From Candidatus Hadarchaeum sp. (GTDB lineage Archaea; Hadarchaeota; Hadarchaeia; Hadarchaeales; Hadarchaeaceae), in assembly GCF_049969415.1 (NCBI RefSeq), contig NZ_JBMFOX010000035.1, positions 1 through 10,923 of the forward strand: a stretch of DNA of 10,923 bases, written 5' to 3'. The notes under the pieces were generated by a model that worked only from the letters and a program-made list of their open reading frames with translations, was not told the origin of the DNA and ran no database searches. Of this stretch, positions 92 to 10,669 are shown in pieces; the stretch's first letter is position 1; each line of letters begins with the position of its first letter. A program made the translations under genes and the position numbers.

Positions 92-95
92 AGTT

Positions 96-102
96 GGGGT
101 GA
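96..102 (+). promoter_or_regulatory. Shine-Dalgarno site GGGGTGA for the opine dehydrogenase gene
   Basis: Archaeal-type GGTGA core 4 nt before ATA at 107. Confidence 0.65.
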
Positions 103-106
103 GACA

Positions 107-1222
107 ATAAAAATAGCTGTTTTGGGCTCGGGAAGTGGAGGCTTCATGTGCGCGGCAGATTTTTCGCTGCGCGGCCATGAGGTCCGATTTTACTCGAGAA
201 CAGGAGAGAGATTTAAACCGGTGATTGAAAAGGGAGGGATTAAATTAATCGGAAAGATGGAAGAACTGCCAGGTGACTTCGCCAAGATTTCGTTAATAAC
301 CACGGACATAAAGGAAGCCATCTCGGGAGCCGACCTGATTGTGAACCCGTTGCCTTTCTTCGGAGTAAGAAACTACGCTAAGCTGGTAGCTCCACATATA
401 GAGGACGGTCAAACGCTTGTCTATTTTGGCAAGGGTGGCGGTGCAATCGAATATTACCAGGTGTTCAAAGAGATGGGTGTCAAAAAGGAAGTTTACTTGG
501 GCGACACCAACACGCTGCCCTACGGGGCCTCATACATGGGCGACAACGTCGTGAGACTTGAATCGAGGACTTGGGAAATAATAACAACCGCTTTCCCGGG
601 TAAAAACACCGACAAGGTCATTCAAACGCTGAAAAAAGTTTATCCCATGTACTCGATAAGAAAAGCCCAGAGCCCGCTCGAAACCGTTCTAGTGGATTAC
701 AATGCCATCACCCACATTCCTCCGATGCTATGCAACGCAGGTCGGATTGAATCGGGTGATAAAAGTTTCCACCTCTTTGGCAAGGACTCCTTGACACCAT
801 CGGTGGTAAGATTAATGGAAAAAGTGGACCGGGAAAGAATGGCGCTGTCCAAGGCGCTAGGGATAAGACCTTACACGCTGGAAGAGGAGATCCTCCACGT
901 AAGATGGAATCCCCACGGCGAGAACTATGTCCTCCCGCTATACGAGGCCATTCATACGCCGTTCTTGGAGATGTGCGAAGGACCGTTCAAGCTTGAGACC
1001 CGGCATCTGCTCGAGGACGTGCCTTACGGGTTGGTCACCTACTCTTCGCTCGGGGACATGCTGAATGTGCCGACGCCGGTGGTCGACGCCGAGATTACCA
1101 TGGCGGAGGCTCTTCTCGACAGGGACTTCAGAAGCACGGGTAGAACTGTGGAAAGAATGGGCATCGATCCCAGCTGGGATCTGAAAACGCTGAACAAATA
1201 CCTGCAGGAAGGGGAAATCTAA
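107..1222 (+). CDS. NAD(P)-dependent opine (octopine/nopaline) dehydrogenase family protein
   Basis: Rossmann N-terminus (I/M)KIAVLGSGSGG...AADFSLRGHEV; TNTLPY; NAITHIPPMLCNAGRIE; DRERMALSKALG; C-terminal RHLLEDVPYGLV...TPVVDA motif of the octopine DH domain. The ORF track starts at TTG 122, but that removes the first Rossmann beta-strand, so ATA 107 is preferred. Confidence 0.88.
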   Translation: MKIAVLGSGSGGFMCAADFSLRGHEVRFYSRTGERFKPVIEKGGIKLIGKMEELPGDFAKISLITTDIKEAISGADLIVNPLPFFGVRNYAKLVAPHIEDGQTLVYFGKGGGAIEYYQVFKEMGVKKEVYLGDTNTLPYGASYMGDNVVRLESRTWEIITTAFPGKNTDKVIQTLKKVYPMYSIRKAQSPLETVLVDYNAITHIPPMLCNAGRIESGDKSFHLFGKDSLTPSVVRLMEKVDRERMALSKALGIRPYTLEEEILHVRWNPHGENYVLPLYEAIHTPFLEMCEGPFKLETRHLLEDVPYGLVTYSSLGDMLNVPTPVVDAEITMAEALLDRDFRSTGRTVERMGIDPSWDLKTLNKYLQEGEI

Positions 1223-1270
1223 TTTTCTTTAACAAAACCCCTTCCCTTTCTTCTTTTTTTGATTTTTTTA
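1223..1270 (+). terminator. Oligo-T (archaeal-type) terminator region between convergent genes
   Basis: Pyrimidine-rich tract with two T7 runs (1254-1260, 1263-1269) just after the TAA at 1222. Confidence 0.55.
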
Positions 1271-1323
1271 GTCTCGAAGGATTTATCACCGAGTCTGCTG
1301 CCGTAATTCTAAACAAGAAAATT

Positions 1324-2502
1324 TCATACCTGATAATAATCTAGCGACAGTGCCTTAGTCGGGCAAACGGTAACACATAATCCGCAGCCGAAGCATTTTG
1401 CCGGCTCTATCTTGGCGAACTCATCAACTGTTATCGCCTCATATATGCAAGCCCGTTGACAAATTCCGCAAGCGTTGCACCTATTGATATCGATCTCCGG
1501 AACCTTGGGGGTTGTAATCAGCTGTTTCCCCCTGATTTCCCTCTCCTTTATCCTTCGGTGGGTTAGGCCCCGAATTTCGCTTAAAGAAGAGTAGCCCTTG
1601 TCCTCCATGAACTTTTTAATGCCATACAGAATTTGTGGAATTATTTTTGGCCCCCTCAGGTGGACTGCGGTCGCGAGACCAACGCAGGTCGCCCCGACCA
1701 TAAAGTACTCCACCGCGTCCCTCCAGCTGCTAATTCCACCCACACCGACTATGGGGATATTGACGTTCTCTGCCATGTCCAATACCATCTTCAAGACGAG
1801 TGGCTTGATTGCGGGACCGGTCAGTCCGCCGCTACCCTTCGGGCCACCGAGGACTGGTTGTCCAGTCTCGATATCTATCTGCAGAACCGGACCTAACGCG
1901 TCCGCAGCAGCGATGGCATCCGCACCCGCCTTCTCCGATGCCTTCGCCCAATTCACCGCGTCTATGAAAAATATGGAGCTGAATTTCGGCATTATCGGGA
2001 TGCTAACCTCCTTTTTTATCTCCGCCAGCATCTTGGCCAGCGGCTCCGGGTTGTGGACCTCCGGCGGCCCCATCGACCCCGGAAACATGGCATTGTATAT
2101 CTCGGCCAAGTGCGGGCATGCGGTGGCGTACTCTATCATGTCGACTCCGGCTTCTTCAGCTTTCTTTGCCAGTTCTATGCTCTCCTCAGGAAATCTGCCA
2201 GCTATGCTCGCGATTATCTTCACCTCGCCCTCTTTCGCTATCTTAATCTCTTCCTTGAACCACTGATCCGCTGAAAGGTCGCTGCCCGAGAGACAGTTTA
2301 TGAAACCACCGTCAATCGCAGCATAACAGGGCCTAGCGTGGGGGACTGGCTGAGCCACAATGGTCTTGGTCACGATTGCGGCGGGGCCGTACTCCGATAG
2401 CTTTTTTATCGTGGCCCCATTTCTGGAAAAGGCCGAGGAGGCCACGATTATCGGGTTCTTTAACTCCAATCCGGCCAATTTTAAAGAAAGGTCTATCTCC
2501 AT
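1324..2502 (-). CDS. Dihydroorotate/dihydropyrimidine dehydrogenase-family (PreA-like) FMN protein with C-terminal 2x[4Fe-4S] domain; atypical substrate site
   Basis: LAGLELKNPIIVAS, AIVTKT, CPH catalytic loop, GGLTGPAIKP, IVGVGGISSWRDAVEYFMVGATCV; C-terminal CNACGICQRAC and CFGCGLCVTVCP. ATG 2502 (MEIDLS) is preferred over 2580 because the family homology starts there and a GTGA RBS-like motif precedes it. Confidence 0.85.
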   Translation of the reverse strand: MEIDLSLKLAGLELKNPIIVASSAFSRNGATIKKLSEYGPAAIVTKTIVAQPVPHARPCYAAIDGGFINCLSGSDLSADQWFKEEIKIAKEGEVKIIASIAGRFPEESIELAKKAEEAGVDMIEYATACPHLAEIYNAMFPGSMGPPEVHNPEPLAKMLAEIKKEVSIPIMPKFSSIFFIDAVNWAKASEKAGADAIAAADALGPVLQIDIETGQPVLGGPKGSGGLTGPAIKPLVLKMVLDMAENVNIPIVGVGGISSWRDAVEYFMVGATCVGLATAVHLRGPKIIPQILYGIKKFMEDKGYSSLSEIRGLTHRRIKEREIRGKQLITTPKVPEIDINRCNACGICQRACIYEAITVDEFAKIEPAKCFGCGLCVTVCPTKALSLDYYQV

Positions 2503-2532
2503 CTTCGTCACAATTTCATTTTTATCAGCGAA

Positions 2533-2547
2533 TAATAAATCTTTGTG
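2533..2547 (-). promoter_or_regulatory. Putative BRE/TATA promoter for the PreA-like gene
   Basis: The minus strand reads CACAAAGATTTATTA, with TTTATTA about 30 nt upstream of ATG 2502. Confidence 0.4.
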
Positions 2548-2646
2548 ATTTGCAAAAATGAACCAGTGCTCTTGCACCATATCATCCCCAAATAAGTTTG
2601 TCCACCGGATTTTGTTAAACCTGTAAAAAAGATAATTGACAAACCA

Positions 2647-2680
2647 ATCGGGAGTTTTTTGTTCTCCCTATCCTTAAATA
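2647..2680 (+). promoter_or_regulatory. Inverted repeat (ATCGGGAG-N9-CTCCCTAT) abutting TATA-like TTAAATA of the corrinoid/MttB operon
   Basis: Arms at 2647-2654 and 2664-2671 are 7/8 complementary. TTAAATA at 2674-2680 lies 21-27 nt before ATG 2701. Confidence 0.5.
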
Positions 2681-2700
2681 GGCGTTAACGAAAAAAACAA

Positions 2701-3357
2701 ATGAGGTTGATGAACGAAAGCGGAGAAAGCCTTAAAAAAATTTACCACGCCGTTTTGAATTTTGACCTGAGGGGGGCCAAAGAAGCCACAAAGGAAGCTC
2801 TGGAAAAAGGGATTGATCCTCTTCTAATTCTCAACGAGGGCTCAATAAAGGCGCTGCGCGAAGCCGGCAGCAAATTTGAAAAGGGCGAGTACTTCCTCCC
2901 CGAGATAATGGTCTGCGCTGAAGCCTTTCAGGAGTCGTATAGAATACTGGAACCGGAGCTCACCCGGAAAAGTGAAAGAGCCGATTCACTCGGCAGAATC
3001 GTCATCGGTACAGTGGTGGGCGACATGCACGACATTGGTAAAAATCTTGTGAAGGCCCTTCTCAGTGGCGTGGGATTCGAGGTTTATGACCTCGGGAGAG
3101 ACGTCCCCATCCAAAAATTTGTGGAAAAAGCTAAAGAAGTTGATGCGGATATCGTGGCCATGTCTGCCCTGCTGACCGTCACGATGCAGTTTATGGGCAC
3201 AATTATAGCGGCTCTGAGGAAAGCTGGCTCGAAAGCAAAGACCATCGTCGGCGGCGCTCCAGTAACGGCCGATTTCGCCAAGAACATCGGTGCCGACGCA
3301 TTTGCCGGTGATGCCTTGTTAGGAGTAGAGGAATGTAAAAGGCTTGTTGGGAAATGA
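2701..3357 (+). CDS. Methyltransferase cognate corrinoid protein (MttC/MtbC/MtaC family)
   Basis: N-terminal cap (ALEKGIDP...AGSKFEKGEYFLPEI), DMHDIGKN (DxHxxG cobalamin motif), DLGRDVP, SALLT, VGGAPVT. Alternative start is ATG 2710 after GAGGT. Confidence 0.93.
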   Translation: MRLMNESGESLKKIYHAVLNFDLRGAKEATKEALEKGIDPLLILNEGSIKALREAGSKFEKGEYFLPEIMVCAEAFQESYRILEPELTRKSERADSLGRIVIGTVVGDMHDIGKNLVKALLSGVGFEVYDLGRDVPIQKFVEKAKEVDADIVAMSALLTVTMQFMGTIIAALRKAGSKAKTIVGGAPVTADFAKNIGADAFAGDALLGVEECKRLVGK

Positions 3358-3361
3358 GAGA

Positions 3362-4810
3362 ATGACTAGAAAATTACTCGAGCCTTTCACTAAGGACGAG
3401 GTCTACCAAATAAATCAAGCGTCCTTGGAAATAATGGAACGAGCCGGAGTCTGGTATGAAAGAGAAGAGGCCCTGAAAATTCTGGAAAAGGCCGGGGCAG
3501 AAGTGAGCTACAAGACCAAGATTGCCAAGCTGCCCGAATCTCTGGTTAAAGATGCCCTGAAACATGTGCCGGGTAAATTCAGACTCGCCGGAAGGGAGAG
3601 AAAACACGACTTCGTTGTCGGTGAAGACAAGTCATACTGGGGAATGATGGGTGGTCCCCTAATTGTGGATTTGGAAACTGGAAAGGTCAGAGAAACCACC
3701 AAAAAGGATGTAGCTGAATGGGCCAAGTTTGCCGACGCCTTGGACGATGTCTGGTTCATAACACCGCCAATGGCCAGAGATGTAAACCCCATGGTCTCGG
3801 CAGAACACGAGTTCGAGGCGATGGTCAACAACAGCTCAAAATTCTTGGAACAAAACCTTTACTCCGGCTCGGGGGCGAGAAATGTTTTTGAGATGGCCAG
3901 CGTTGTCATGGGAGGAGATGAAGAGCTGACAAAGAACCCGTTAATTTTCGGCGCCGGCTGTGCCGTGAGCCCGCTGCAACACTGTGGCATCGCCCTTGAC
4001 GTCTGGTCTGAACTGGCCTCCAGAGGCCTGCCCTGCCTCGTGGCCACTGAGGCCATCATCGGGGCAACGGGGCCGATAACAATAGCTGGTTCCCTAGCCG
4101 TTGCCAACGCGGATGTCTTGAGCGGTATCACGCTCCTCGAACTCATCACTCCCGGAATTCCCGTCGCCTATTCGATTGGACTTTCGCACGTCATGGATAT
4201 GAAGAAGGCCGAGGCCCTGTGCGGTTGCCCCGAAAGGGTGTTCGCGATTGCGGCGAACGCCCAGCTCGGCCGTTTTTATGGGGTACCAACCTGGGTTGGG
4301 GTGGCCACGGACTCGAAGCTGCCTGACGCACAGGCGGGTTATGAGATGGCTTTGTCCGCACTCTACACGACCATGACGGGAAACCACATGGTGATGGGTA
4401 TAGGATCCTCCCTGGCATCAAGAGGGGTCTCCTATGAGGAGGCCCTAATCGACTGGGAAATCATGCGCATGGTCTCAAGAATAGCCAAAGGTACCGAGGT
4501 AAGCGAAGAAACCTTGGGCGTTGACCTGATATGTGAAATTGGCCCTGGAGGAAACTTCATAGCGACCGAACACACGCTAAAGCATTATAAGAAGGAAATT
4601 CAGGATGCCGTGATAACCGATAGAAGCTCGGTATGGATTTGGGAAAAGGAGGGTAGAAAGGACATGGCTCAGAGAGCTAGGGAAATGGCAAAAAAGATCT
4701 TAAGGGAACACGAACCCACCCCATTACCAAAAGACGTGCAAGAGAGGCTAAGCGAGATCGTCAAAAGGGCTGAGAAAGAATCGTTAAAAATGTCGTCCTC
4801 AACCTCTTAA
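3362..4810 (+). CDS. mttB: Trimethylamine methyltransferase (MttB) superfamily protein, non-pyrrolysine type
   Basis: ASLEIMERAGV...ALKILEKAGAEV, VSPL, GATGPITIAGSLAVANA, PGIPV, DMK...GCPE, FYGVP...TDSKLPDAQAGYE, IGPGGNFIATEHT, W...GRKD. No in-frame TAG. Starts 4 nt after the corrinoid gene stop. The symbol denotes the family, not the substrate. Confidence 0.92.
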   Translation: MTRKLLEPFTKDEVYQINQASLEIMERAGVWYEREEALKILEKAGAEVSYKTKIAKLPESLVKDALKHVPGKFRLAGRERKHDFVVGEDKSYWGMMGGPLIVDLETGKVRETTKKDVAEWAKFADALDDVWFITPPMARDVNPMVSAEHEFEAMVNNSSKFLEQNLYSGSGARNVFEMASVVMGGDEELTKNPLIFGAGCAVSPLQHCGIALDVWSELASRGLPCLVATEAIIGATGPITIAGSLAVANADVLSGITLLELITPGIPVAYSIGLSHVMDMKKAEALCGCPERVFAIAANAQLGRFYGVPTWVGVATDSKLPDAQAGYEMALSALYTTMTGNHMVMGIGSSLASRGVSYEEALIDWEIMRMVSRIAKGTEVSEETLGVDLICEIGPGGNFIATEHTLKHYKKEIQDAVITDRSSVWIWEKEGRKDMAQRAREMAKKILREHEPTPLPKDVQERLSEIVKRAEKESLKMSSSTS

Positions 4811-4889
4811 ACCTTCCACGCGAATCTTTATCCAAGCGGGGTTCAAACAAAGAATAATAAAGAAATGAAAATAGATGTGTTGGGATAAC

Positions 4890-6017
4890 ATGAAACAGCT
4901 TCACATAGCCAACGTGCATCATGCGCTGGGTGCGCAGATGATCGAGTTCGCAGGCTGGGAGATGCCGCTGAGCTACACGAGCTTGGCGGAGGAACACATG
5001 GCCGTGCGTGAAGCGGCGGGACTCTTTGACGTCAGCCACATGGGAGAGTTTAAAGTAAGTGGCCAGAAAGCACTGGAATTTCTCCAGAGCGTGACCACCA
5101 ACGATGTGTCCAAGCTAGAAATATTGGGAAGCCAGTACTCAACGGTGACCAACGAAAAAGGAGGAACCCGTGACGATATCTTAGTCTATCGCCTGGCCGA
5201 AAATGACTACCTCGTGGTTTGCAACGCCGCCAACGTCGACAAGATAGGCAACTGGTTTCAGGAGAATAACAAAATGGGGGCGGAGATAACGGACATTACC
5301 ATGACGACGACTCTTTTTGCGCTCCAAGGACCAAAGGCCCTACCAACGTTGCAAAAACTGACCGACTTCGACCTCACCAAGATAAAGAGGTTCAGGGCCG
5401 CCTGGGTAAACATCGCCGGCATCGAATGTCTCGCCAGCAGAACTGGCTATACCGGTGAAGATGGCATCGAAATTTTTCTCCTGGACGAACCCCAATCCAA
5501 TCCGGAGAGAGCTGAGAAGTTGTGGAAGGCCATTCTTCAAGCCGGTGGGGAATCCGGAGTTAAGCCGTGTGGGCTCGGGGCCCGTGACACCCTGCGCTTG
5601 GAAGCTGGTCTTTGTTTATACGGGAATGACCTCACTGAGGAGATATCCCCTCTTGAGGCCAGAATTGAATTTGCGGTTAAACTCGACAAAGGGGACTTCA
5701 TCGGTCGAGAGGCCTTGCTGGAGCAGAAGAAATCGGGACTGAAAAAGATCCGAATTGGGCTGCGAATGCTTGAACCAGGGATACCACGACAGGGATACAG
5801 CATCTTCAGGGATAACGAAAGGATTGGCTGGGTCTCATCCGGAACCTTATCGCCGCTTCTAAAGGTGGGAATTGCCATGGGCTACGTGCCTCCTGAGGTC
5901 AAGGCTAGGGAAACTCTTTTCGTCGAAATACATGGCAGAAAGAGAAAGGCCGAAGTCGTGGATTGGCCCTTTTATAACCCAGAACAGTATGGGTTTAAGA
6001 GGAAGCACCATGGTTAA
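4890..6017 (+). CDS. gcvT: Glycine cleavage system T protein (aminomethyltransferase)
   Basis: FAGWEMPLSY...EHMAVREAAGLFDVSHMG, GGTRDD, ALQGP, SRTGYTGEDG, GLGARDTLRLEAG, SGTLSP, IAMGYV, PFY. Alternative start is ATG 4875. Confidence 0.93.
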   Translation: MKQLHIANVHHALGAQMIEFAGWEMPLSYTSLAEEHMAVREAAGLFDVSHMGEFKVSGQKALEFLQSVTTNDVSKLEILGSQYSTVTNEKGGTRDDILVYRLAENDYLVVCNAANVDKIGNWFQENNKMGAEITDITMTTTLFALQGPKALPTLQKLTDFDLTKIKRFRAAWVNIAGIECLASRTGYTGEDGIEIFLLDEPQSNPERAEKLWKAILQAGGESGVKPCGLGARDTLRLEAGLCLYGNDLTEEISPLEARIEFAVKLDKGDFIGREALLEQKKSGLKKIRIGLRMLEPGIPRQGYSIFRDNERIGWVSSGTLSPLLKVGIAMGYVPPEVKARETLFVEIHGRKRKAEVVDWPFYNPEQYGFKRKHHG

Positions 6018-7158
6018 GGTCTGGCAGCACTTGGCCAAGGATGTTGTAACCCCTGATTACTGCATCGGCTGCGGCAGCTGTGTTGCAACCTGCCCAGTGC
6101 AGGCCTTGGAGAGAGTTAACGAAAAACCGACTTTAAAAGGAGTCTGCATCAACTGCGGCATCTGCTACGGGACCTGCCCTGAGGTCATTGACCCCCAAAG
6201 CCTGCAGATCCCGGTCTTCGGCGCTCCGCCGAACGATGAGCTAATCGGAACCTTCAGACACGCCCTCTCGGTTGAAGCCAACGACCCCAGCGTTAAAATT
6301 CGGGCCCAAGACGGCGGTGCGGTTACCGCGCTGCTCAGCTCGCTACTTGAGATCGGATACATAGACGCGGCCATTGTCACAGGCACTGATGCCGCCCCTT
6401 GGTATCCAGTTGTTAAGGTGGCCACGTGCCCCGAGGAGGTGGCGGAGGGCGCCGGGACAAAATATTCCCGAGGGCCGACCTCCCTAGGACTGCGCGAGGC
6501 GGTGAACATGTACTATCGAAAAAAGGTGGCCATCGTGGGGACGCCCTGCCAGATAATCGCCTCGAGGCGGATGGCGTTATCTACACCTAAAAACGAACAC
6601 CTCTCCGACGCGATAAAGTTAAGGATTGGGCTGTTCTGCAGCGGTGTCTTCAATTATGAGCGATTTTTCAAGAATATCGTTGAAAAGAGCCTTCAGATAC
6701 CACTGGCCTCGGTGAGCAAGTTTGACCTGAAGAATGAGAAATTGATTGTTTACCTGAAGCACGAGCCATCACGAGAGCTTCCGCTCAGCGAGATAAGAAA
6801 ATACATTGACCTGCCCTGCCGGATCTGCTCCAACTTCTCGGCTGAAACGGCTGATATCTCAATCGGCTATCTGGGCTCGCCCGCAGGCAAATCGACGGTT
6901 TTGTTAAGGACGGAGCTGGGGGAAGAAGCGTTTGCAGAAGCGGGCAAGCTGGGCAAGTTCACCGTTACCGATCTGACGAGCGTGCAACCCGGATTGGATG
7001 CCATAAGACAAGAGGCGCTGAAGAAGAGGACATTGGCGGCACAAACAATCGAAGCGCTACGAAAGGAGAAAAAGGTGTTGCCGGTTTGGCTGGAGCATCC
7101 GGCCGGTGAAACTACAGCGGAACCCATCGAGTCATACAAGGGGACCTGTACAGTCTAG
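6010..7158 (+). CDS. Coenzyme F420 hydrogenase/dehydrogenase beta-subunit family protein (FrhB/FdhB) with N-terminal 2x[4Fe-4S] ferredoxin (FpoF/FqoF-like architecture)
   Basis: CIGCGSCVATCP and CINCGICYGTCP, then AQDGGAVTALL, GTKY, VGTPCQ, IGLFC, CRIC...ADISIG. ATG 6010 overlaps the gcvT end by 8 nt; the track start at 5872 lies inside gcvT. Confidence 0.9.
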   Translation: MVKVWQHLAKDVVTPDYCIGCGSCVATCPVQALERVNEKPTLKGVCINCGICYGTCPEVIDPQSLQIPVFGAPPNDELIGTFRHALSVEANDPSVKIRAQDGGAVTALLSSLLEIGYIDAAIVTGTDAAPWYPVVKVATCPEEVAEGAGTKYSRGPTSLGLREAVNMYYRKKVAIVGTPCQIIASRRMALSTPKNEHLSDAIKLRIGLFCSGVFNYERFFKNIVEKSLQIPLASVSKFDLKNEKLIVYLKHEPSRELPLSEIRKYIDLPCRICSNFSAETADISIGYLGSPAGKSTVLLRTELGEEAFAEAGKLGKFTVTDLTSVQPGLDAIRQEALKKRTLAAQTIEALRKEKKVLPVWLEHPAGETTAEPIESYKGTCTV

Positions 7159-7223: not shown

Positions 7224-7863
7224 ATGTATGAGATAATCGAACTCGGAATCGATGCATTGGCTGAGTATCTCTCGGCGCATGTAATTATCGGTCTAGTTCC
7301 AGCCTTTTTCATCTCAGGGGCAATCGCGGCCCTAGCGAGCAAACAGTCCGTACTCAAATACTTTGGAGCCGGAGCAAAGAAATGGCTCTCTTACAGCGTT
7401 GCCACCGTATCCGGAGCCATTCTGGCTGTCTGTAGCTGCACAATCCTGCCCATCTTTCAAGGCATTTATAAACGCGGCGCCGGCGTGTTTATCGTGGGAG
7501 TGATCGGCGGCATCGCGGCAAACTTCCCCCCCTTCTCATGACCCGGCTACTTCCGTGGGCGAGTTGACCAAGCCCTACCTCGGTAACAGCTCGCTGACAG
7601 CTTGCCTGCTGGCCTCAGTCATCGGGGCCCTCCTTTACATGCCAACTTTGAAATTCCGATTGTCGGGTCTCTCTTTGGCTACGGCAACGGGCTGATGGCG
7701 CCCGGGCCGGCCCTCTCCCTCCTGCTTGCTGGTCCGGCACTGAGCCTACCCAGCATAATCGTCCTCACTAGGATGGTCGGATGGAAAAAAGGCCGGCGTT
7801 TATGTGTTGCTGGTTGTGATAATCGCCACTTTGACTGGAATGCTTTACGGGTCATTGGTATGA
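7224..7863 (+). pseudogene. ArsP/DUF318-family permease, disrupted (internal deletion plus 3 frameshifts)
   Basis: N-terminal LVPAFFISGAI...ILAVCSCTILPIFQGIYKRGAG and C-terminal GALLYMPTL/EIPIV...GPALSLLLAGPALSLPS...WKK/AGVYVLLVVIIATLTGMLYGSLV* are split over different frames. Shifts occur at C7 (7526-7532), about 7650, and A6 (7785-7790). The reconstructed product is only about 213 codons. Confidence 0.85.
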
Positions 7864-7886
7864 AGAAAATGGGAGGTGGTTGAAAT

Positions 7887-8326
7887 TTGTCTGAGGAAAT
7901 GAAATGGGAAGCCGGAAGGAACACGCATGAAAACATCATCTACGTATGCTTTGGAGGGCTTTCAAATACAGGAATCACCGCAGCCCTTGCGGCTTTGGAA
8001 GCGGTTCAGGAACTTGGATTGAAAAAGGTGGCCATTGGCTGTTTGGCGGGACTGCCGACCAACGTGGCTCCGGTTCACGGTAAGACGAAAGCAGCCGGAA
8101 AAATCGTGACTGTGGATGGATGCCCGTTTGAGTGTAGCAAGAAGGTGGTGGAAGCAGCGGGTTTCAGGGTAAACAAAAACATCGTGCTGACTAAAGACAT
8201 CGGTATGAAAAAAAGGCGCTCCACGAGGACATCGGTAGTGACCTGAAAGAGGTCATGGCGTACATCTCAAATGACGATGTAAAGAGAGCCAAGGACCTTA
8301 TCATCAGGGCCATACTTGAGGATTGA
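7887..8326 (+). pseudogene. DGC-domain putative zinc-binding protein, frameshifted near the C-terminus
   Basis: RBS GGAGGTG at 7872-7878 and TTG start; motifs CFGGLSNTG, CLAG, VDGCPFECSKK. As sequenced the ORF ends at 8246. A shift at A7 (8208-8214) restores ALHEDIGSDLKEVMAYISNDDVKRAKDLIIRAILED* to 8326. Confidence 0.72.
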
Positions 8327-8348
8327 AAAAGACAAACGGTGCCGAGAT

Positions 8349-9092
8349 ATGGCCCAAACTTATAAAGAATTGGGCAAAAAGATGGTGGAGGTTCTTGATT
8401 TAAAATACTCTCCAGTTGGCGTAAATTTAATGTCGGTTGAAAGGGATATTCCTGGCACCGAGTTGTTGAACAAACATCGATATTGTCAGGGTTTGATGTT
8501 GGCCAGAAAGGGAAAAGGCGTTTTGCTCAGGGCGAACGGTCTCTCCTGTCCGGCGGCATCCTCTTGCTTTGGATACCAAGAATTAACGGAAAATTTAAAG
8601 ACCGGAAGAAGTCTCGTTGACTTTGGCATCGTTTCCGAAGAAGCTGCAGGACAAAGGATGTTCGCCGAAATGCCCAGACTGCAACCCGGTTCAATCAAGC
8701 AATTGCATCTTTTCCCGTTAGAAAGATCAAACTGTGTTCCCAACATCGTCGTCGTTGAAGATGAGGTGGAAAAACTGATGTGGATCCTCCTAGCCTACCT
8801 GAACCTCAAGGTAGGACAGCGCGTGTACTCAAATACTGCGGTACTCCAAGCCGCTTGCGTCGACGCTACAGTGGTGCCATACCTTGAGGACCGGCTCAAT
8901 TTCTCATTTGGTTGCTATGGTTGCAGAGACGCGACCGATATTGGAGCGGGTGAAGCCATTCTTGGATTCCCCGGCCGCTTCTTATCATCGATAGTCGACA
9001 ACTTGGTAAATTTATCCAAAAAAGCAATACCGACGTCCCGCTCAAAGCAGGCTTTGTCTGCTCTTAAAACCATCAATCCGGCTGATCAGTAA
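8349..9092 (+). CDS. DUF169-family (Cys-motif) protein
   Basis: LDLKYSPVGV, RYCQ, LSCPAA, PNIVV, AACVD, SFGCYGCR pattern. ATG 8349 is preferred over TTG 8316, which overlaps the reconstructed DGC gene end. Confidence 0.8.
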   Translation: MAQTYKELGKKMVEVLDLKYSPVGVNLMSVERDIPGTELLNKHRYCQGLMLARKGKGVLLRANGLSCPAASSCFGYQELTENLKTGRSLVDFGIVSEEAAGQRMFAEMPRLQPGSIKQLHLFPLERSNCVPNIVVVEDEVEKLMWILLAYLNLKVGQRVYSNTAVLQAACVDATVVPYLEDRLNFSFGCYGCRDATDIGAGEAILGFPGRFLSSIVDNLVNLSKKAIPTSRSKQALSALKTINPADQ

Positions 9093-9242
9093 TGTCAGCA
9101 GCCATGTCGGATTCGTTGATGCCACGAGACTCAGCAATCTTTTTTAATGTTCTCTCGCAGCCAGCTTCCATCTTTCACATTCAAAAACCAAAAGAAAATT
9201 TACCATTTGGGGTGGCCACTATCCAACATCGGAAAAATAGAC

Positions 9243-9285
9243 CAATAACTATATTGTTTTATGAACAACTTTCATATGTAGGTGA
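9243..9285 (+). promoter_or_regulatory. Two short inverted repeats and RBS upstream of the radical SAM gene
   Basis: CAATA-N4-TATTG (9243-9256), TATGAA-N5-TTCATA (9260-9276) and GGTGA (9281-9285), 7 nt before ATG 9293. Confidence 0.5.
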
Positions 9286-9292
9286 CTGAAAG

Positions 9293-10669
9293 ATGAAGGT
9301 GCTGCTCATCTCTCCACCCACAGAGAGCGCCGTGACCAAAGTTATGGGCACCACCGGACCTCCACTAGGTCTAGCTTACCTTGCTTCAATGATCAAAAAT
9401 GAACATGATGTAAAAATTGTTGATGCCGTTGCCGAGGGCTACGCTGAAGAGGACGTAGCTAAAATAATAAGGAGTTATGACCCAGACCTGATCGGCTTAA
9501 CTGCAACCACCGCCATGATGCCTGATGCCTACGAGACTGCCCAAGTCGCTAAGAAAATCAACGAAAACGTGAAAATCGTCATCGGTGGTCCCCACGCAAC
9601 TTTTTTGCCCGAGAGAACCATGCAGGAATGCCCGCAGGTGGATTTCGTCGTAAGAGGTGAAGGGGAGTACACCTTTAAAGAACTGGTAGCTGCCTTGGAA
9701 AAAGAAAGAGATCTGAAGAACATAAAGGGGCTTTCGTTCCAACGCGATGGAAAAGTGATAAACAACCCGCCGAGAGAACTGGTGGAAAACGTTGACGAAA
9801 TTCCCATGCCTGCCTATGACCTGCTGCCGATGAAAAAATACCGGGCGGGAAAAATCGAGTTCGGTACCATAATCACCAGCCGGGGCTGCCCGTTTAACTG
9901 CATCTTCTGCTCTTCCTCACTTCAGTTCGGCAAGAAATGGCGCGGCCACAGCGTCGCGAGGACTCTGGAGGAGCTATCCATCCTCAGAAATGAGTACAGT
10001 AAAAGGGAAATAGAATTTCTGGATGATACCTTTACCTTTCAGAAATCGAGAGCCATTACCATCACCGAAGAAATCAGGAGGGAAGGACTGGACATCACTT
10101 GGACGGCATCTTCCAGGGTCGATACCTTTTCACAAGAAGTGGCCTGCGCGATGAAAATGTCCGGAGCACATACCGTCTACTTCGGAATAGAATCCGCGTC
10201 GCAGAGGACGCTGGACTTCATCGGAAAGGGGATTACGCCAGAAAAATCGGTGCTGGCGGTGAAAAATGCCAAAAGGGCCGGGCTCCACGCCTTGGGGTCC
10301 TTCGTGATCGGTTTTCCAGAAGAAAGTGCTGAGGAAATTGAAACGACGATAAAGTTTTCTAAAAAGGTCGGCGTTGACCTCGCCCAGTTCACCATCGCCA
10401 CTCCATACCCGGGGACGAGGCTGTGGTTATATGCTCTGAAAGAAAAGATACTGCTCACCATGAACTGGAGAAAGTTCACCACCCTAGATCCCGTGATGAA
10501 ATTGAAATATCTTACGGCGGACCAGATAACCAAAGCTCTGAGATCGGCTTACCTAAAATTTTACCTGCGTCCGAAAATGCTGTTGCTGGACCTGATCAGA
10601 GATAGGGGCTTCGTCTTCAAGAAGGCGATGCACTTCCTAGCCAATGAGATAGTCCAACGGCTGAAATAG
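9293..10669 (+). CDS. Cobalamin (B12)-binding domain radical SAM protein (class B methyltransferase-like)
   Basis: MKVLLISPP, PPLGLAYLA, IVIGGPHAT, VRGEGE (B12-binding domain); TSRGCPFNCIFC (CxxxCxxC); DDTF, GIES, VIGFP, TPYPGT. Confidence 0.93.
   Translation: MKVLLISPPTESAVTKVMGTTGPPLGLAYLASMIKNEHDVKIVDAVAEGYAEEDVAKIIRSYDPDLIGLTATTAMMPDAYETAQVAKKINENVKIVIGGPHATFLPERTMQECPQVDFVVRGEGEYTFKELVAALEKERDLKNIKGLSFQRDGKVINNPPRELVENVDEIPMPAYDLLPMKKYRAGKIEFGTIITSRGCPFNCIFCSSSLQFGKKWRGHSVARTLEELSILRNEYSKREIEFLDDTFTFQKSRAITITEEIRREGLDITWTASSRVDTFSQEVACAMKMSGAHTVYFGIESASQRTLDFIGKGITPEKSVLAVKNAKRAGLHALGSFVIGFPEESAEEIETTIKFSKKVGVDLAQFTIATPYPGTRLWLYALKEKILLTMNWRKFTTLDPVMKLKYLTADQITKALRSAYLKFYLRPKMLLLDLIRDRGFVFKKAMHFLANEIVQRLK

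What the first reader, a model, noticed from the sequence alone, without database searches (positions are those of the whole stretch)
107..7158. Candidate undescribed archaeal pathway for demethylation and breakdown of an N-methylated compound
Seen in sequence: six intact genes - opine DH, an atypical PreA/DHOD-like enzyme, a corrinoid protein, a non-Pyl MttB, GcvT and a ferredoxin-FrhB. The PreA-like gene and the corrinoid/MttB pair share a divergent promoter region of about 200 nt. Established: non-Pyl MttB homologues (MtgB, MtcB, MtpB, MtyB) demethylate quaternary amines onto a cognate corrinoid protein; GcvT loads C1 onto a folate-type carrier; FrhB domains exchange electrons with F420; opine DHs cleave or form secondary-amine C-N bonds. 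Inference: the cluster removes methyl groups from an N-methylated amino acid, betaine or N-heterocycle, redox-processes the backbone, and feeds C1 and electrons to folate/pterin and F420 pools. I know of no described pathway with this combination. The substrate cannot be read from the sequence.
Basis: partly seen in the sequence, partly recalled or inferred. Interest (0 to 1): 0.8.

Follow-up and report, generated by a model that had tools for sequence, protein, structure and literature searches.

The report
Three gene pairs, not one pathway
The six genes are real, but they are three separately inherited gene pairs in a hot-spring archaeon, and only one pair is a methyl-removing module, of an unusual type whose substrate is unknown.

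Summary
Six intact genes lie at 107-7158 in a Hadarchaeum genome (1.47 Mb, 95% complete), and a 198-nt divergent spacer separates the PreA-like gene from the corrinoid/MttB pair.

The single six-gene pathway is not supported. Comparison with 64 other Hadarchaeia genomes splits the stretch into three units with different histories.
1. Corrinoid protein + non-Pyl MttB are nearly abutting genes and form a rare clade. The pair sits at another locus in the H. yellowstonense lineage and is deleted in one close relative. It carries Trp where MtgB has the carboxylate-binding Arg312.
2. GcvT + ferredoxin-FrhB overlap by 8 nt. GcvT is single-copy. The pair is adjacent in 26 of 41 GcvT-bearing genomes, nearly all of which lack any MttB. 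It belongs with glycine cleavage and F420 metabolism.
3. Opine-DH + PreA-like occur in only four Hadarchaeum genomes. Both have large bacterial homologue sets, and homologues of the two proteins appear to share contigs elsewhere.

The window borders an accessory region that mixes further MttB/MtmB-corrinoid modules with hydantoinase-type, carbamoyltransferase, AOR and ACD genes. The substrate remains unknown.

The parts
107..1222 (+). Opine/octopine-dehydrogenase-family NAD(P) enzyme. The TTG at 122 is the first standard start. An ATA at 107 would add the Rossmann strand KIAVLG.
   Evidence: Pfam Octopine_DH scores 118 bits. Sequence read. Orthologues at 89% identity or more occur in only 3 of 64 other Hadarchaeia genomes. 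There is a large set of 55-62% homologues, and the ones that carry a source name are Spirochaetota.
1324..2502 (-). PreA/DHOD-like FMN enzyme with a C-terminal 2x[4Fe-4S] domain (392 aa from ATG 2502). It is convergent with OpDH and divergent from the corrinoid gene.
   Evidence: Pfam DHO_dh scores 129 bits, plus Fer4 families. It is below the NCBIfam PreA and PyrD cut-offs. Start inferred. Orthologues at 81% or more occur in the same 3 genomes as OpDH; five paralogous matches at 33-46% lie elsewhere in this genome.
2503..2700 (.). A/T-rich divergent intergenic region of 198 nt between the PreA-like and corrinoid genes.
   Evidence: Sequence read. In G034 the matching stretch is replaced by 334 nt with no similarity.
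2701..3357 (+). Methyltransferase-cognate corrinoid protein (218 aa) with the His-on motif DMHDIG.
   Evidence: Pfam B12-binding and B12-binding_2. TIGR02370 scores 190.3 against a cut-off of 215.3. Motif seen. It is next to the MttB orthologue in all 9 related loci examined, including the 49% relative L025.
3362..4810 (+). Non-pyrrolysine MttB-superfamily methyltransferase. The open frame begins at TTG 3344; the ATG at 3362 lies 4 nt after the corrinoid stop.
   Evidence: Pfam MTTB scores 303 bits. TIGR02369 scores 458 against a cut-off of 525. No in-frame stop. Ala321 at the Pyl position and Trp317 at the MtgB Arg312 position. The clade is rare.
4811..4889 (.). Spacer between MttB and GcvT holding a conserved A/T box (TAATAAAG about 31-38 nt before the GcvT ATG). 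It is a candidate separate promoter for GcvT.
   Evidence: The upstream alignment is conserved in G000, G032 and G034, and G034 has lost MttB. Promoter function is inferred, not shown.
4890..6017 (+). GcvT, the glycine-cleavage aminomethyltransferase (T-protein).
   Evidence: It passes two NCBIfam GcvT cut-offs (444.5 against 300; 375.5 against 235.85). It is single-copy in this genome and matched in 41 of 65 Hadarchaeia, with identity falling as relatedness falls. Start taken.
6010..7158 (+). Ferredoxin-domain + FrhB-type (F420-reductase-like) flavo-iron-sulfur protein of 382 aa. Its start overlaps the GcvT stop by 8 nt.
   Evidence: Pfam FrhB_FdhB_N and FrhB_FdhB_C plus Fer4. Start confirmed by the orthologue alignment, which also shows 8 invariant N-terminal Cys. 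The nearest solved chain is 8RIU_B. It is adjacent to GcvT in 26 of 41 GcvT-bearing genomes.
7224..10669 (+). Context outside the finding: two fragments of an ArsP_1 permease (7224-7541 and 7602-7883), a DGC-domain gene, a DUF169 gene and a B12-binding radical-SAM gene. This is a decayed paralogue of the tail of the contig C8 locus.
   Evidence: Pfam hits. By blastp the copies are 68-80% identical to the C8 genes, and residues 89-238 of the 365-aa C8 ArsP are missing here.

Best explanation
The stretch is a junction of three two-gene units with separate histories, not one operon-like pathway.

(1) Corrinoid protein + MttB is a self-contained methyl-transfer module. MttB moves a methyl group from a methylated amine onto the Co(I) corrinoid protein. 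Elsewhere in the genome, a RamA-type activase would keep the cofactor reduced. A URO-D/MtaA-type or pterin-binding methyltransferase would pass the methyl group on. The organism has no Mcr, so this would be non-methanogenic methylotrophy. This MttB clade has Trp where MtgB has the carboxylate-binding Arg312. I therefore infer that its substrate is not an acidic betaine; the actual substrate is unknown.

(2) GcvT + ferredoxin-FrhB is an old, vertically inherited pair that belongs with glycine cleavage and F420/C1 metabolism. FrhB most likely couples a redox step to F420 or ferredoxin.

(3) OpDH + PreA-like is an accessory pair, probably acquired from bacteria. It most likely acts in reductive breakdown of a nitrogen compound: ring or C=C reduction by the flavoprotein, and secondary-amine cleavage by OpDH.

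Shown here: gene content, distributions, rearrangements and residue differences. Inferred: every enzymatic role and every substrate statement.
For: Module 1, corrinoid + MttB.
- The pair is adjacent in all 9 related loci examined.
- MttB-family genes occur in 6 of 65 Hadarchaeia genomes, all in one genus, and in 0 of 57 genomes of the other 18 genera.
- Among 208 proteins with E at or below 1e-20, only 4 clusters are 86-91% identical and one is 53%; the remaining listed hits are 40% or less.
- In the H. yellowstonense-type loci L006, L010, L023 and L024, none of the other four proteins matches near the pair. On L024 the neighbours are a DeoC-family aldolase, an ATPase, an amidohydrolase and a thiolase.
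- In G034, window positions ~2506-4650 are replaced by 334 nt, and only about the last 160 nt of MttB remain.
- The MtgB residues Y97, R312, H348 and F356 (PMC13080624, passages) align to M102, W317, G352 and S359.
- W317 is kept in all 5 orthologue clusters. The genome's two other MttB copies keep Arg, and they score 370 and 357 bits to MtgB against 272 and 282 to Pyl-MttB. The window protein scores 230 and 240.
- A RamA-like gene is present. URO-D-family and pterin-binding genes are present. No MtrH and no Mcr were found.

Module 2, GcvT + FrhB.
- GcvT gives one match in this genome and is matched in 41 of 65 genomes.
- FrhB lies directly next to GcvT in 23 of the 30 loci fetched. By coordinates it is adjacent in 26 of 41 GcvT-bearing genomes.
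- G048 carries the string SHMT-GcvT-GcvPA-GcvPB-FrhB. Six of the 14 regions fetched from other genomes continue GcvT-FrhB-luciferase-like; five of these, and a seventh region (L108) that lacks the luciferase-like gene, also carry CofE and/or CofD close by.
- GcvH and GcvP lie on contig C17.
- CofD and CofH are present.

Module 3, OpDH + PreA-like.
- Orthologues of both occur in the same four genomes and stay adjacent although their surroundings differ.
- Both have large homologue sets, at 55-62% and 46-52% identity.
- Four 'longest contig' lengths are shared between the two homologue lists: 46537, 158760, 32017 and 24447.
Against: - Rearrangement among close species does not exclude functional cooperation. 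G038 keeps orthologues of all six genes, only at two loci.
- PreA-like and corrinoid-MttB share one 198-nt divergent spacer in G000 and G032, which could be co-regulated.
- A second locus in this genome (contig C8) again places a PreA-like paralogue, an MttB paralogue and an NAD(P) imine/secondary-amine dehydrogenase (OCD/SbnB-like) in one co-directional gene string. In G038 and G034 an MtmB-like + corrinoid pair lies between OpDH and a carbamoyltransferase. This repeated proximity fits a real functional link between corrinoid demethylation and these enzymes.
- The shared-contig evidence for OpDH and PreA-like elsewhere rests only on equal contig lengths. Gene order was not seen.
- The residue mapping comes from a pairwise alignment at roughly one-third identity.
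- There are no expression data.
Confidence: 0.55

Rival explanations
1. Functional-region reading. Corrinoid-MttB, PreA-like and OpDH work together with the neighbouring accessory genes: MtmB-like + corrinoid, carbamoyltransferase, hydantoinase/dihydropyrimidinase-like amidohydrolase, AOR, a second PreA-like, ACD, a second MttB and OCD/SbnB-like. Together they would break down an N-methylated cyclic amide, ureide or amino-acid derivative. Methyl groups would be stripped by the corrinoid enzymes, the ring reduced and opened, carbamoyl phosphate and acyl-CoA used for ATP, and secondary amines cleaved by OpDH/OCD. GcvT-FrhB would be only a neighbour, or would handle a glycine end product.
For: - The C8 gene string in this genome runs OTC-like, cyclic amidohydrolase (320 bits to D-hydantoinase), AOR, PreA-like, ACD, MttB, OCD, unknown, ArsP, DUF169 x2, B12-rSAM, all on one strand.
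- G038 reads PreA | OpDH | MtmB-like-Corr | OTC-like | amidohydrolase | AOR | DHOD-like. G034 is similar.
- In G034 the two loci lie about 14 kb apart on one contig.
- The OpDH paralogue in G036 sits beside a xanthine-DH-type three-subunit enzyme, a carbamoyltransferase and AOR.
- Earlier scan notes describe OpDH-like genes inside ureide-breakdown clusters and beside MttB genes in bacteria. I treat these as leads only.
Against: - G034 (94% complete) has lost the window-type corrinoid-MttB pair but keeps OpDH and PreA-like.
- In G038 the window-type pair is on a different contig.
- Among the top 120 relatives listed for each protein, no contig length is shared between the MttB list and the OpDH or PreA-like lists outside Hadarchaeum.
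- All of these genomes belong to one genus, so the repeated proximity is not independent evidence.
Confidence: 0.25
2. All six genes form one pathway in which MttB demethylates the substrate, GcvT loads the C1 unit onto a folate or pterin, FrhB passes electrons to F420, and OpDH and PreA-like process the carbon backbone.
For: - The six genes are contiguous with short gaps in G000 and G032.
- MttB, GcvT and FrhB are co-directional, with a 79-nt spacer and then an 8-nt overlap.
- F420 biosynthesis genes are present in the genome.
Against: - GcvT-FrhB is conserved in genera that have no MttB.
- GcvT is the only T-protein in a genome that also has GcvH and GcvP.
- A conserved A/T box lies upstream of GcvT even where MttB is deleted.
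- The full gene order occurs only at 81-92% identity.
- From general knowledge, not tested here: characterised quaternary-amine systems use an MtgA- or MtaA-type second methyltransferase, not GcvT.
Confidence: 0.1
3. The corrinoid-MttB pair is a decaying or functionless acquisition. It is an orphan module on its way out, as in G034, and has no current role.
For: - The pair was lost in G034.
- The window tail holds a broken ArsP permease.
- Another corrinoid-MttB pair in this genome, on contig C9, is flanked by transposase fragments.
Against: - Both genes are intact in four genomes and in three metagenome contigs.
- The six-member alignment, which reaches down to 53% identity, has a mean column identity of 86% and a long list of invariant residues.
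- The DxHxxG motif is intact.
Confidence: 0.05

Closest known systems
Non-pyrrolysine MttB-superfamily quaternary-amine:corrinoid methyltransferase systems (MtgB/MtgC of Desulfitobacterium hafniense; MtcB, MtpB, MtyB and MthB of Eubacterium limosum)
   Same: The MTTB fold family, with no Pyl codon. A cognate B12-binding protein with DxHxxG is encoded immediately upstream. A RamA-type activase is present in the genome.
   Different: Only about one-third identical to MtgB (230 bits). None of the four glycine-betaine-binding residues is kept, and Arg312 is Trp. Passages of PMC13080624 say Arg312 is conserved in MtcB, MtpB, MthB and MtyB. The corrinoid protein scores far below the MtgC models (180 against 370; 170 against 310). 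No MtgA-like gene is adjacent.
Pyrrolysine-containing trimethylamine methyltransferase MttB (Methanosarcina; PDB 7XCL)
   Same: It gives the best PDB score (240 bits). The window protein also resembles it at three of the four MtgB substrate positions: hydrophobic, aromatic and Gly.
   Different: Ala replaces pyrrolysine and there is no in-frame TAG. It is below the TIGR02369 cut-off (458 against 525). The organism has no Mcr.
Glycine cleavage system T-protein (GcvT) working with GcvH, GcvP and an L-protein
   Same: It passes the curated GcvT models. GcvH and the split GcvP are present in the genome.
   Different: No dihydrolipoamide dehydrogenase reaches the cut-off (best 160 against 408.8 bits). 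GcvT overlaps an FrhB-type gene by 8 nt, and I found no paper on this pairing. 'Glycine cleavage' + 'FrhB' returned 3 papers, of which I saw only the listing.
F420-reductase subunits of the F420-reducing CO dehydrogenase and formylmethanofuran dehydrogenase of 'Ca. Ethanoperedens' (PDB 8RIU chain B and 8RJA chain E)
   Same: The same architecture: an N-terminal 2x[4Fe-4S] ferredoxin domain followed by an FrhB-type domain. 8RIU_B is the best PDB hit at 166 bits over residues 11-343. Passages of PMC11493965 describe the ferredoxin domain as the anchor to the partner enzyme.
   Different: The genomic partner here is GcvT and the glycine-cleavage genes, not CODH or Fwd. No complex is shown.
Reductive N-heterocycle (uric acid / 2,8-dioxopurine) breakdown clusters of anaerobic bacteria (XdhD, YgfK, SsnA, YgeW and others)
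   Same: The same logic of a flavin/Fe-S reductase, a cyclic amidohydrolase and a carbamoyltransferase (abstract of 10.1101/2025.05.19.654654). The Hadarchaeum region has PreA-like, hydantoinase-like and OTC/YgeW-like genes.
   Different: The Hadarchaeum proteins are below all equivalog cut-offs; YgeW, for example, scores 164 against 453. That abstract mentions neither OpDH nor corrinoid methyltransferases. No xanthine-DH-type gene was seen in the regions annotated around the window-type locus.

Membership tests
MttB superfamily (Pfam PF06253) | Full-length match to the MTTB profile above the gathering score | tested here: met
   303.1 bits against a cut-off of 25, covering profile positions 30-498 of 500.
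Pyl-type trimethylamine methyltransferase (TIGR02369 equivalog) | Score above the curated cut-off, and an in-frame TAG (pyrrolysine) at the active site | tested here: not met
   458.4 bits against a cut-off of 525. The frame is open throughout. Ala321 aligns to the Pyl position of 7xcl.
MtgB-type / acidic quaternary-amine methyltransferases | The carboxylate-binding Arg312 (conserved in MtgB, MtcB, MtpB, MthB and MtyB according to PMC13080624), plus H348 and the aromatic pair Y97/F356 | tested here: not met
   The aligned residues are W317, G352, M102 and S359. W317 is kept in the 5 orthologue clusters, whereas the genome's two paralogues have Arg. Caveat: the alignment is pairwise, at roughly one-third identity.
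Methyltransferase-cognate corrinoid proteins (TIGR02370) | B12-binding and B12-binding_2 domains, a DxHxxG motif, and a gene next to its methyltransferase | tested here: met
   Both Pfam domains are present. DMHDIG is present. The stop codon lies 4 nt before the MttB ATG. The curated score is just missed (190.3 against 215.3).
Complete corrinoid methyl-transfer system (MT1 + corrinoid protein + MT2 + activase) | A second methyltransferase and a RamA-type reductive activase available to the module | tested here: inconclusive
   A RamA-like gene lies on contig C40 (332 bits). There are four URO-D-family matches over the cut-off and one pterin-binding gene. No MtrH was found. None of these is adjacent to the module, so the pairing is unknown.
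Glycine cleavage T-protein (GcvT) | Passes the curated GcvT models, with H- and P-proteins present in the genome | tested here: met
   PRK00389 scores 444.5 against 300 and TIGR00528 scores 375.5 against 235.85. GcvH and GcvP lie on contig C17. No L-protein was found above the cut-off.
FrhB / F420-reductase family | FrhB_FdhB_N and FrhB_FdhB_C domains, and F420 available in the organism | tested here: met
   Both Pfam domains are present. CofD (180 bits) and CofH (475.5 against 374.1) are present. It is below the FrhB equivalog cut-off (201.7 against 331.5), so it is not the hydrogenase subunit itself. F420 binding was not tested.
NAD-dependent dihydropyrimidine dehydrogenase PreA, or dihydroorotate dehydrogenase PyrD | Score above the curated equivalog cut-off | tested here: not met
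   PreA scores 219.5 against 335, PyrD subfamily 1 scores 213 against 270, and archaeal PyrD scores 167 against 330. No PreT-like partner gene lies in the window. It is a member of the DHO_dh fold family only.
Opine (octopine/nopaline) dehydrogenase family | The Octopine_DH helical domain plus an N-terminal NAD(P) Rossmann domain | tested here: met
   PF02317 scores 118 bits and PF01210 scores 24.5 against 23.1. GSGSGG is visible in the sequence. Substrate is unknown; no NCBIfam equivalog was hit.

The most novel reading that the evidence does not exclude
A subclade of Hadarchaeum carries an accessory region of unmeasured total length. On G034 its two loci lie about 14 kb apart, and in G000 it is split over at least contigs C35 and C8. 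This region may encode an undescribed anaerobic route for a methylated nitrogen compound, for example an N-methylated cyclic amide or ureide, or a non-acidic methylammonium compound. In that route, several non-Pyl MttB/MtmB-corrinoid modules, including a Trp317-type MttB with a new substrate class, would remove N-methyl groups. PreA-like flavoproteins, a hydantoinase-type hydrolase and a carbamoyltransferase would open the skeleton and harvest energy from it. OpDH/OCD-type dehydrogenases would cleave the resulting secondary amines. A glycine-type end product would go to a glycine cleavage system whose redox partner is an F420/ferredoxin-linked FrhB protein instead of a classical L-protein.
Probability: 0.15. 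Interest if true: 0.8.

Novelty: new member of a known kind. Interest (0 to 1): 0.4.

Why it matters
Most members of the MttB superfamily have no known substrate. This small clade replaces the Arg that binds the substrate carboxylate in characterised non-Pyl enzymes, so it is a concrete candidate for a new substrate class. Hadarchaeia are widespread subsurface and hot-spring archaea. I did not find their methylotrophic potential described (the listing was not read further). This genome alone has three MttB and three MtmB homologues without pyrrolysine, and no Mcr.

The analysis also shows that gene adjacency in a single genome can mislead. The conserved GcvT-FrhB pair in genomes without a recognisable L-protein is a separate, testable question about how these archaea run glycine cleavage.

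Tried and rejected
- Expression: the look-up of sequencing runs listed no run for 107-7158, so no RNA holder was listed and read laying was not used.
- Wider synteny for OpDH: tblastn against plasmids gave only 4 records at 29-33% identity, too distant to use.
- Context of the 53% MttB relative P0006 and of the contigs that seem to carry both OpDH and PreA-like homologues: this could not be fetched.
- FrhB as a replacement for the L-protein, tested by looking for a complementary distribution: the result is mixed.
  - For: G036 lacks FrhB and has an Lpd-like gene (364 bits, cut off by a contig end).
  - Against: genus g14 has both (7 of 7 genomes have an Lpd-like match and 7 of 7 have FrhB). 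In genus g8, all 3 genomes have GcvT with neither Lpd nor FrhB. Family f5 has FrhB homologues in 6 of 6 genomes but no GcvT match.
- Earlier scan notes: none for 'GcvT FrhB', for look-alikes of the window, for the MttB or for the PreA-like protein.
- A call with wrong FrhB coordinates failed on frame and was repeated correctly.
- The bacterial promoter/terminator scan was not run, because the organism is an archaeon.
PDB scores and residue mapping were used instead.

Full report
**Where the window lies.** The window is contig C35 of a 1.47-Mb genome in 138 contigs, 95% complete. Close relatives found in public genomes are named Hadesarchaea / Candidatus Hadarchaeum, including Ca. H. yellowstonense.

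**Observation.** ORF listing and profile searches confirm the six genes.
- The opine-DH-family gene runs to 1222. The first standard start is TTG 122. An ATA at 107, behind a GGGGTGAG box, would add the Rossmann strand KIAVLG.
- The PreA/DHOD-like gene with two 4Fe-4S motifs lies on the minus strand. Orthologues align from residue 26 onward, so the start is probably ATG 2502. The divergent spacer to the corrinoid gene is then 198 nt. The protein misses the curated PreA and PyrD cut-offs.
- The corrinoid protein (2701-3357) carries DMHDIG.
- MttB has no in-frame stop. Its probable ATG at 3362 lies 4 nt after the corrinoid stop.
- GcvT probably starts at 4890, because the close relative L004 has a stop codon right after the upstream ATG.
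- The ferredoxin-FrhB gene starts at ATG 6010 and overlaps the GcvT stop by 8 nt. An alignment of 12 orthologues confirms this start and shows eight invariant N-terminal cysteines.

**Synteny test.**
- The full six-gene order is found in one genome, seen as L004 = G032. A second relative, L005 = G033, shows Corr-MttB-GcvT-FrhB before its 3.7-kb contig ends. Protein identities are 81-92%, too close to be informative.
- In the H. yellowstonense lineage (L006, L010 = G038, and metagenome contigs L023 and L024; MttB 85-86% identical), none of the other four window proteins matches near the corrinoid-MttB pair. On L024, which I annotated, its neighbours are a DeoC-family aldolase, an ATPase, an amidohydrolase and a thiolase.
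- A 49% relative on a 4.4-kb metagenome contig (L025) again has corrinoid-MttB, followed by an amino-acid kinase on the opposite strand.
- In G034 the order is ArsP-FrhB-GcvT, then a 30-residue MttB remnant, then PreA-like. At the DNA level, window positions ~2506-4650 are replaced by 334 nt of unrelated sequence, and about the last 160 nt of MttB survive. The pair was therefore deleted there.

**Distribution across 65 Hadarchaeia genomes (G000 plus 64 others).**
- MttB-family genes occur in 6 genomes, all in the window's genus, and in none of the 57 genomes of the other 18 genera.
- GcvT gives one match in this genome and is matched in 41 of 65 genomes. Identity falls from 87% within the genus to 45-49% in other families, which fits vertical inheritance.
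- The FrhB gene lies directly beside GcvT in 23 of the 30 GcvT loci fetched. By coordinates it is adjacent in 26 of 41 GcvT-bearing genomes. Five more genomes have the two genes on different contigs, nine have no FrhB match, and G048 has them in one gene string.
- In other genera and families the neighbourhood is about C1 and F420 metabolism. Six of the 14 regions fetched continue GcvT-FrhB-luciferase-like. Five of those, and a seventh region (L108) that lacks the luciferase-like gene, also carry CofE and/or CofD close by. G048 reads SHMT-GcvT-GcvPA-GcvPB-FrhB.
- This genome has GcvH and a split GcvP on contig C17, and it has CofD and CofH.

GcvT-FrhB is therefore an old unit tied to glycine cleavage and F420, independent of MttB. 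An A/T box upstream of GcvT is conserved in G000, G032 and also G034, where MttB is gone. I read this as a candidate promoter of GcvT's own; that is an inference.

**The MttB itself.**
- In the 5.8-billion-protein search only four clusters are 86-91% identical and one is 53%. The remaining listed hits are 40% or less.
- Against solved structures it scores about equally to Pyl-MttB (240 bits) and to MtgB (230 bits). Ala321 sits at the pyrrolysine position.
- A 2026 paper on MtgB identifies Y97 and F356 (cation-pi) and R312 and H348 (carboxylate). It states that R312 is conserved in MtcB, MtpB, MthB and MtyB (PMC13080624, abstract and passages).
- After correcting for a 2-residue numbering offset, which I checked on all four residues, these positions map to M102, W317, G352 and S359 in the alignment.
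- Trp317 is kept in all five orthologue clusters. The genome's two other MttB copies (contigs C8 and C9) have Arg, and they score 370 and 357 bits to MtgB.
- I infer that the window clade does not bind an acidic betaine. This is the one feature that sets it apart from the characterised non-Pyl enzymes.
- A RamA-like activase, URO-D/MtaA-like genes and one pterin-binding gene exist elsewhere in the genome. MtrH and Mcr were not found.

**OpDH and PreA-like.**
- Orthologues at 89% or more (OpDH) and 81% or more (PreA-like) occur in the same four genomes: G000, G032, G034 and G038. They stay adjacent although the surroundings differ.
- Both have large homologue sets, at 55-62% and 46-52% identity. 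Many are unnamed; the named ones are mostly bacterial (Spirochaetota, Chloroflexota, Bacillota), with one Asgard archaeon.
- Four 'longest contig' lengths are identical between the two lists (46,537; 158,760; 32,017; 24,447). This suggests the two genes travel together elsewhere. I did not see gene order on those contigs.
- No contig length is shared with the MttB list outside Hadarchaeum.

**The wider region.**
- In G038 the order is FrhB-GcvT | IorA-IorB | amino-acid permease | PreA-like | OpDH | MtmB-like-corrinoid | OTC-like | amidohydrolase | AOR | DHOD-like. G034 has the same genes in a different arrangement.
- In this genome, contig C8 carries, all on one strand: OTC-like, a cyclic amidohydrolase (320 bits to D-hydantoinase, below its cut-off), AOR, a PreA-like paralogue (259 against 335 bits), ACD alpha, an Arg-type MttB, an OCD/SbnB-like dehydrogenase, an unknown gene, ArsP, two DUF169 genes, another unknown gene and a B12-rSAM gene.
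- The window's own tail (ArsP fragments, DGC, DUF169, B12-rSAM) is a decayed paralogue of that tail. The copies are 68-80% identical, and the ArsP copy has lost residues 89-238.
- Corrinoid methyltransferase genes therefore sit repeatedly among ring-opening, carbamoyl-transfer and oxidoreductase genes in this genus. However, all of these genomes are close kin, so the repeats are not independent.
- Earlier scan notes report OpDH-like genes in ureide-breakdown clusters and beside MttB genes in bacteria. I used them as leads only.
- The abstract of the reductive uric-acid pathway paper shows the analogous logic of reductase, hydrolase and carbamoyltransferase.

**FrhB.**
- Its best solved relatives are the F420-reductase subunits of the F420-reducing CODH and Fwd complexes of 'Ca. 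Ethanoperedens' (8RIU_B and 8RJA_E). In those, the ferredoxin domain anchors the subunit to its partner enzyme (PMC11493965, passages).
- No dihydrolipoamide dehydrogenase reaches the cut-off in this genome (160 against 408.8 bits), and only 4 of 65 genomes in the class have one that does.
- A role for FrhB as redox partner of glycine cleavage is attractive, but the distribution test was mixed.

**Verdict.** The six-gene pathway is not supported. The real units are a mobile, unusual corrinoid-MttB module, a housekeeping GcvT-FrhB pair, and an accessory OpDH-PreA-like pair. The substrate of the MttB, and any link to the neighbouring catabolic genes, remain open.

Noticed in passing
window 4890-7158; loci L107-L114 and L117: GcvT and a ferredoxin-FrhB gene form a conserved pair across Hadarchaeia, adjacent in 26 of 41 GcvT-bearing genomes. 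One genome has the string SHMT-GcvT-GcvPA-GcvPB-FrhB. Most of these genomes lack a recognisable dihydrolipoamide dehydrogenase. FrhB might be the redox partner of glycine cleavage, but the distribution test was mixed.
   Followed up: partly
G000 contig C8 1-16000 (L092): A co-directional gene string: carbamoyltransferase, hydantoinase/dihydropyrimidinase-like hydrolase, AOR, a second PreA-like Fe-S flavoprotein, ACD alpha, an Arg-type MttB with no adjacent corrinoid gene, an OCD/SbnB-like dehydrogenase, an unknown 389-aa protein, ArsP permease, two DUF169 genes and a B12-rSAM gene. It looks like a catabolic cluster for a nitrogen compound with a built-in demethylase.
   Followed up: partly
G000 contigs C100, C78 and C42 (L099-L101); L094 9421-11471; L095 14514-16552: The genome has three MtmB (monomethylamine methyltransferase) homologues with no in-frame stop. 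In G038 and G034 one MtmB-like + corrinoid pair lies between OpDH and the carbamoyltransferase. A 2026 paper (PMC13044021, search listing only) links a non-Pyl MtmB homologue to tetramethylammonium and choline use.
   Followed up: partly
window 7224-7883: The ArsP_1 permease gene is broken into two short frames and lacks the part matching residues 89-238 of the intact 365-aa copy on C8. The window tail (ArsP, DUF169, B12-rSAM) is a 68-80% identical duplicate of the C8 tail.
   Followed up: yes
G000 contig C9 3000-11000 (L093): A third corrinoid + MttB pair lies between IS630-type transposase fragments (HTH and DDE_3). The element has split a molybdopterin oxidoreductase gene. This points to recent mobility of such modules.
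   Followed up: no
G036 contig C30 (L126): A 34% OpDH paralogue sits next to a three-subunit xanthine-dehydrogenase-type enzyme, a putative cyclase, a luciferase-like protein, a carbamoyltransferase, AOR and an arginase-family gene, in a genome that has no MttB.
   Followed up: no
window 92-124: The OpDH frame has no ATG, GTG or TTG before position 122. Yet the codons from ATA 107 encode the expected Rossmann strand, and a GGGGTGAG box lies 4 nt upstream. This may be an ATA start.
   Followed up: partly
G000 contig C8 20706-22683: The F420 biosynthesis genes CofD and CofH lie a few kb beyond the C8 gene string. In other genera CofE and CofD follow GcvT-FrhB closely. The accessory region may therefore have been inserted into an ancestral GcvT-FrhB-Mer-like-CofE-CofD neighbourhood.
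   Followed up: no
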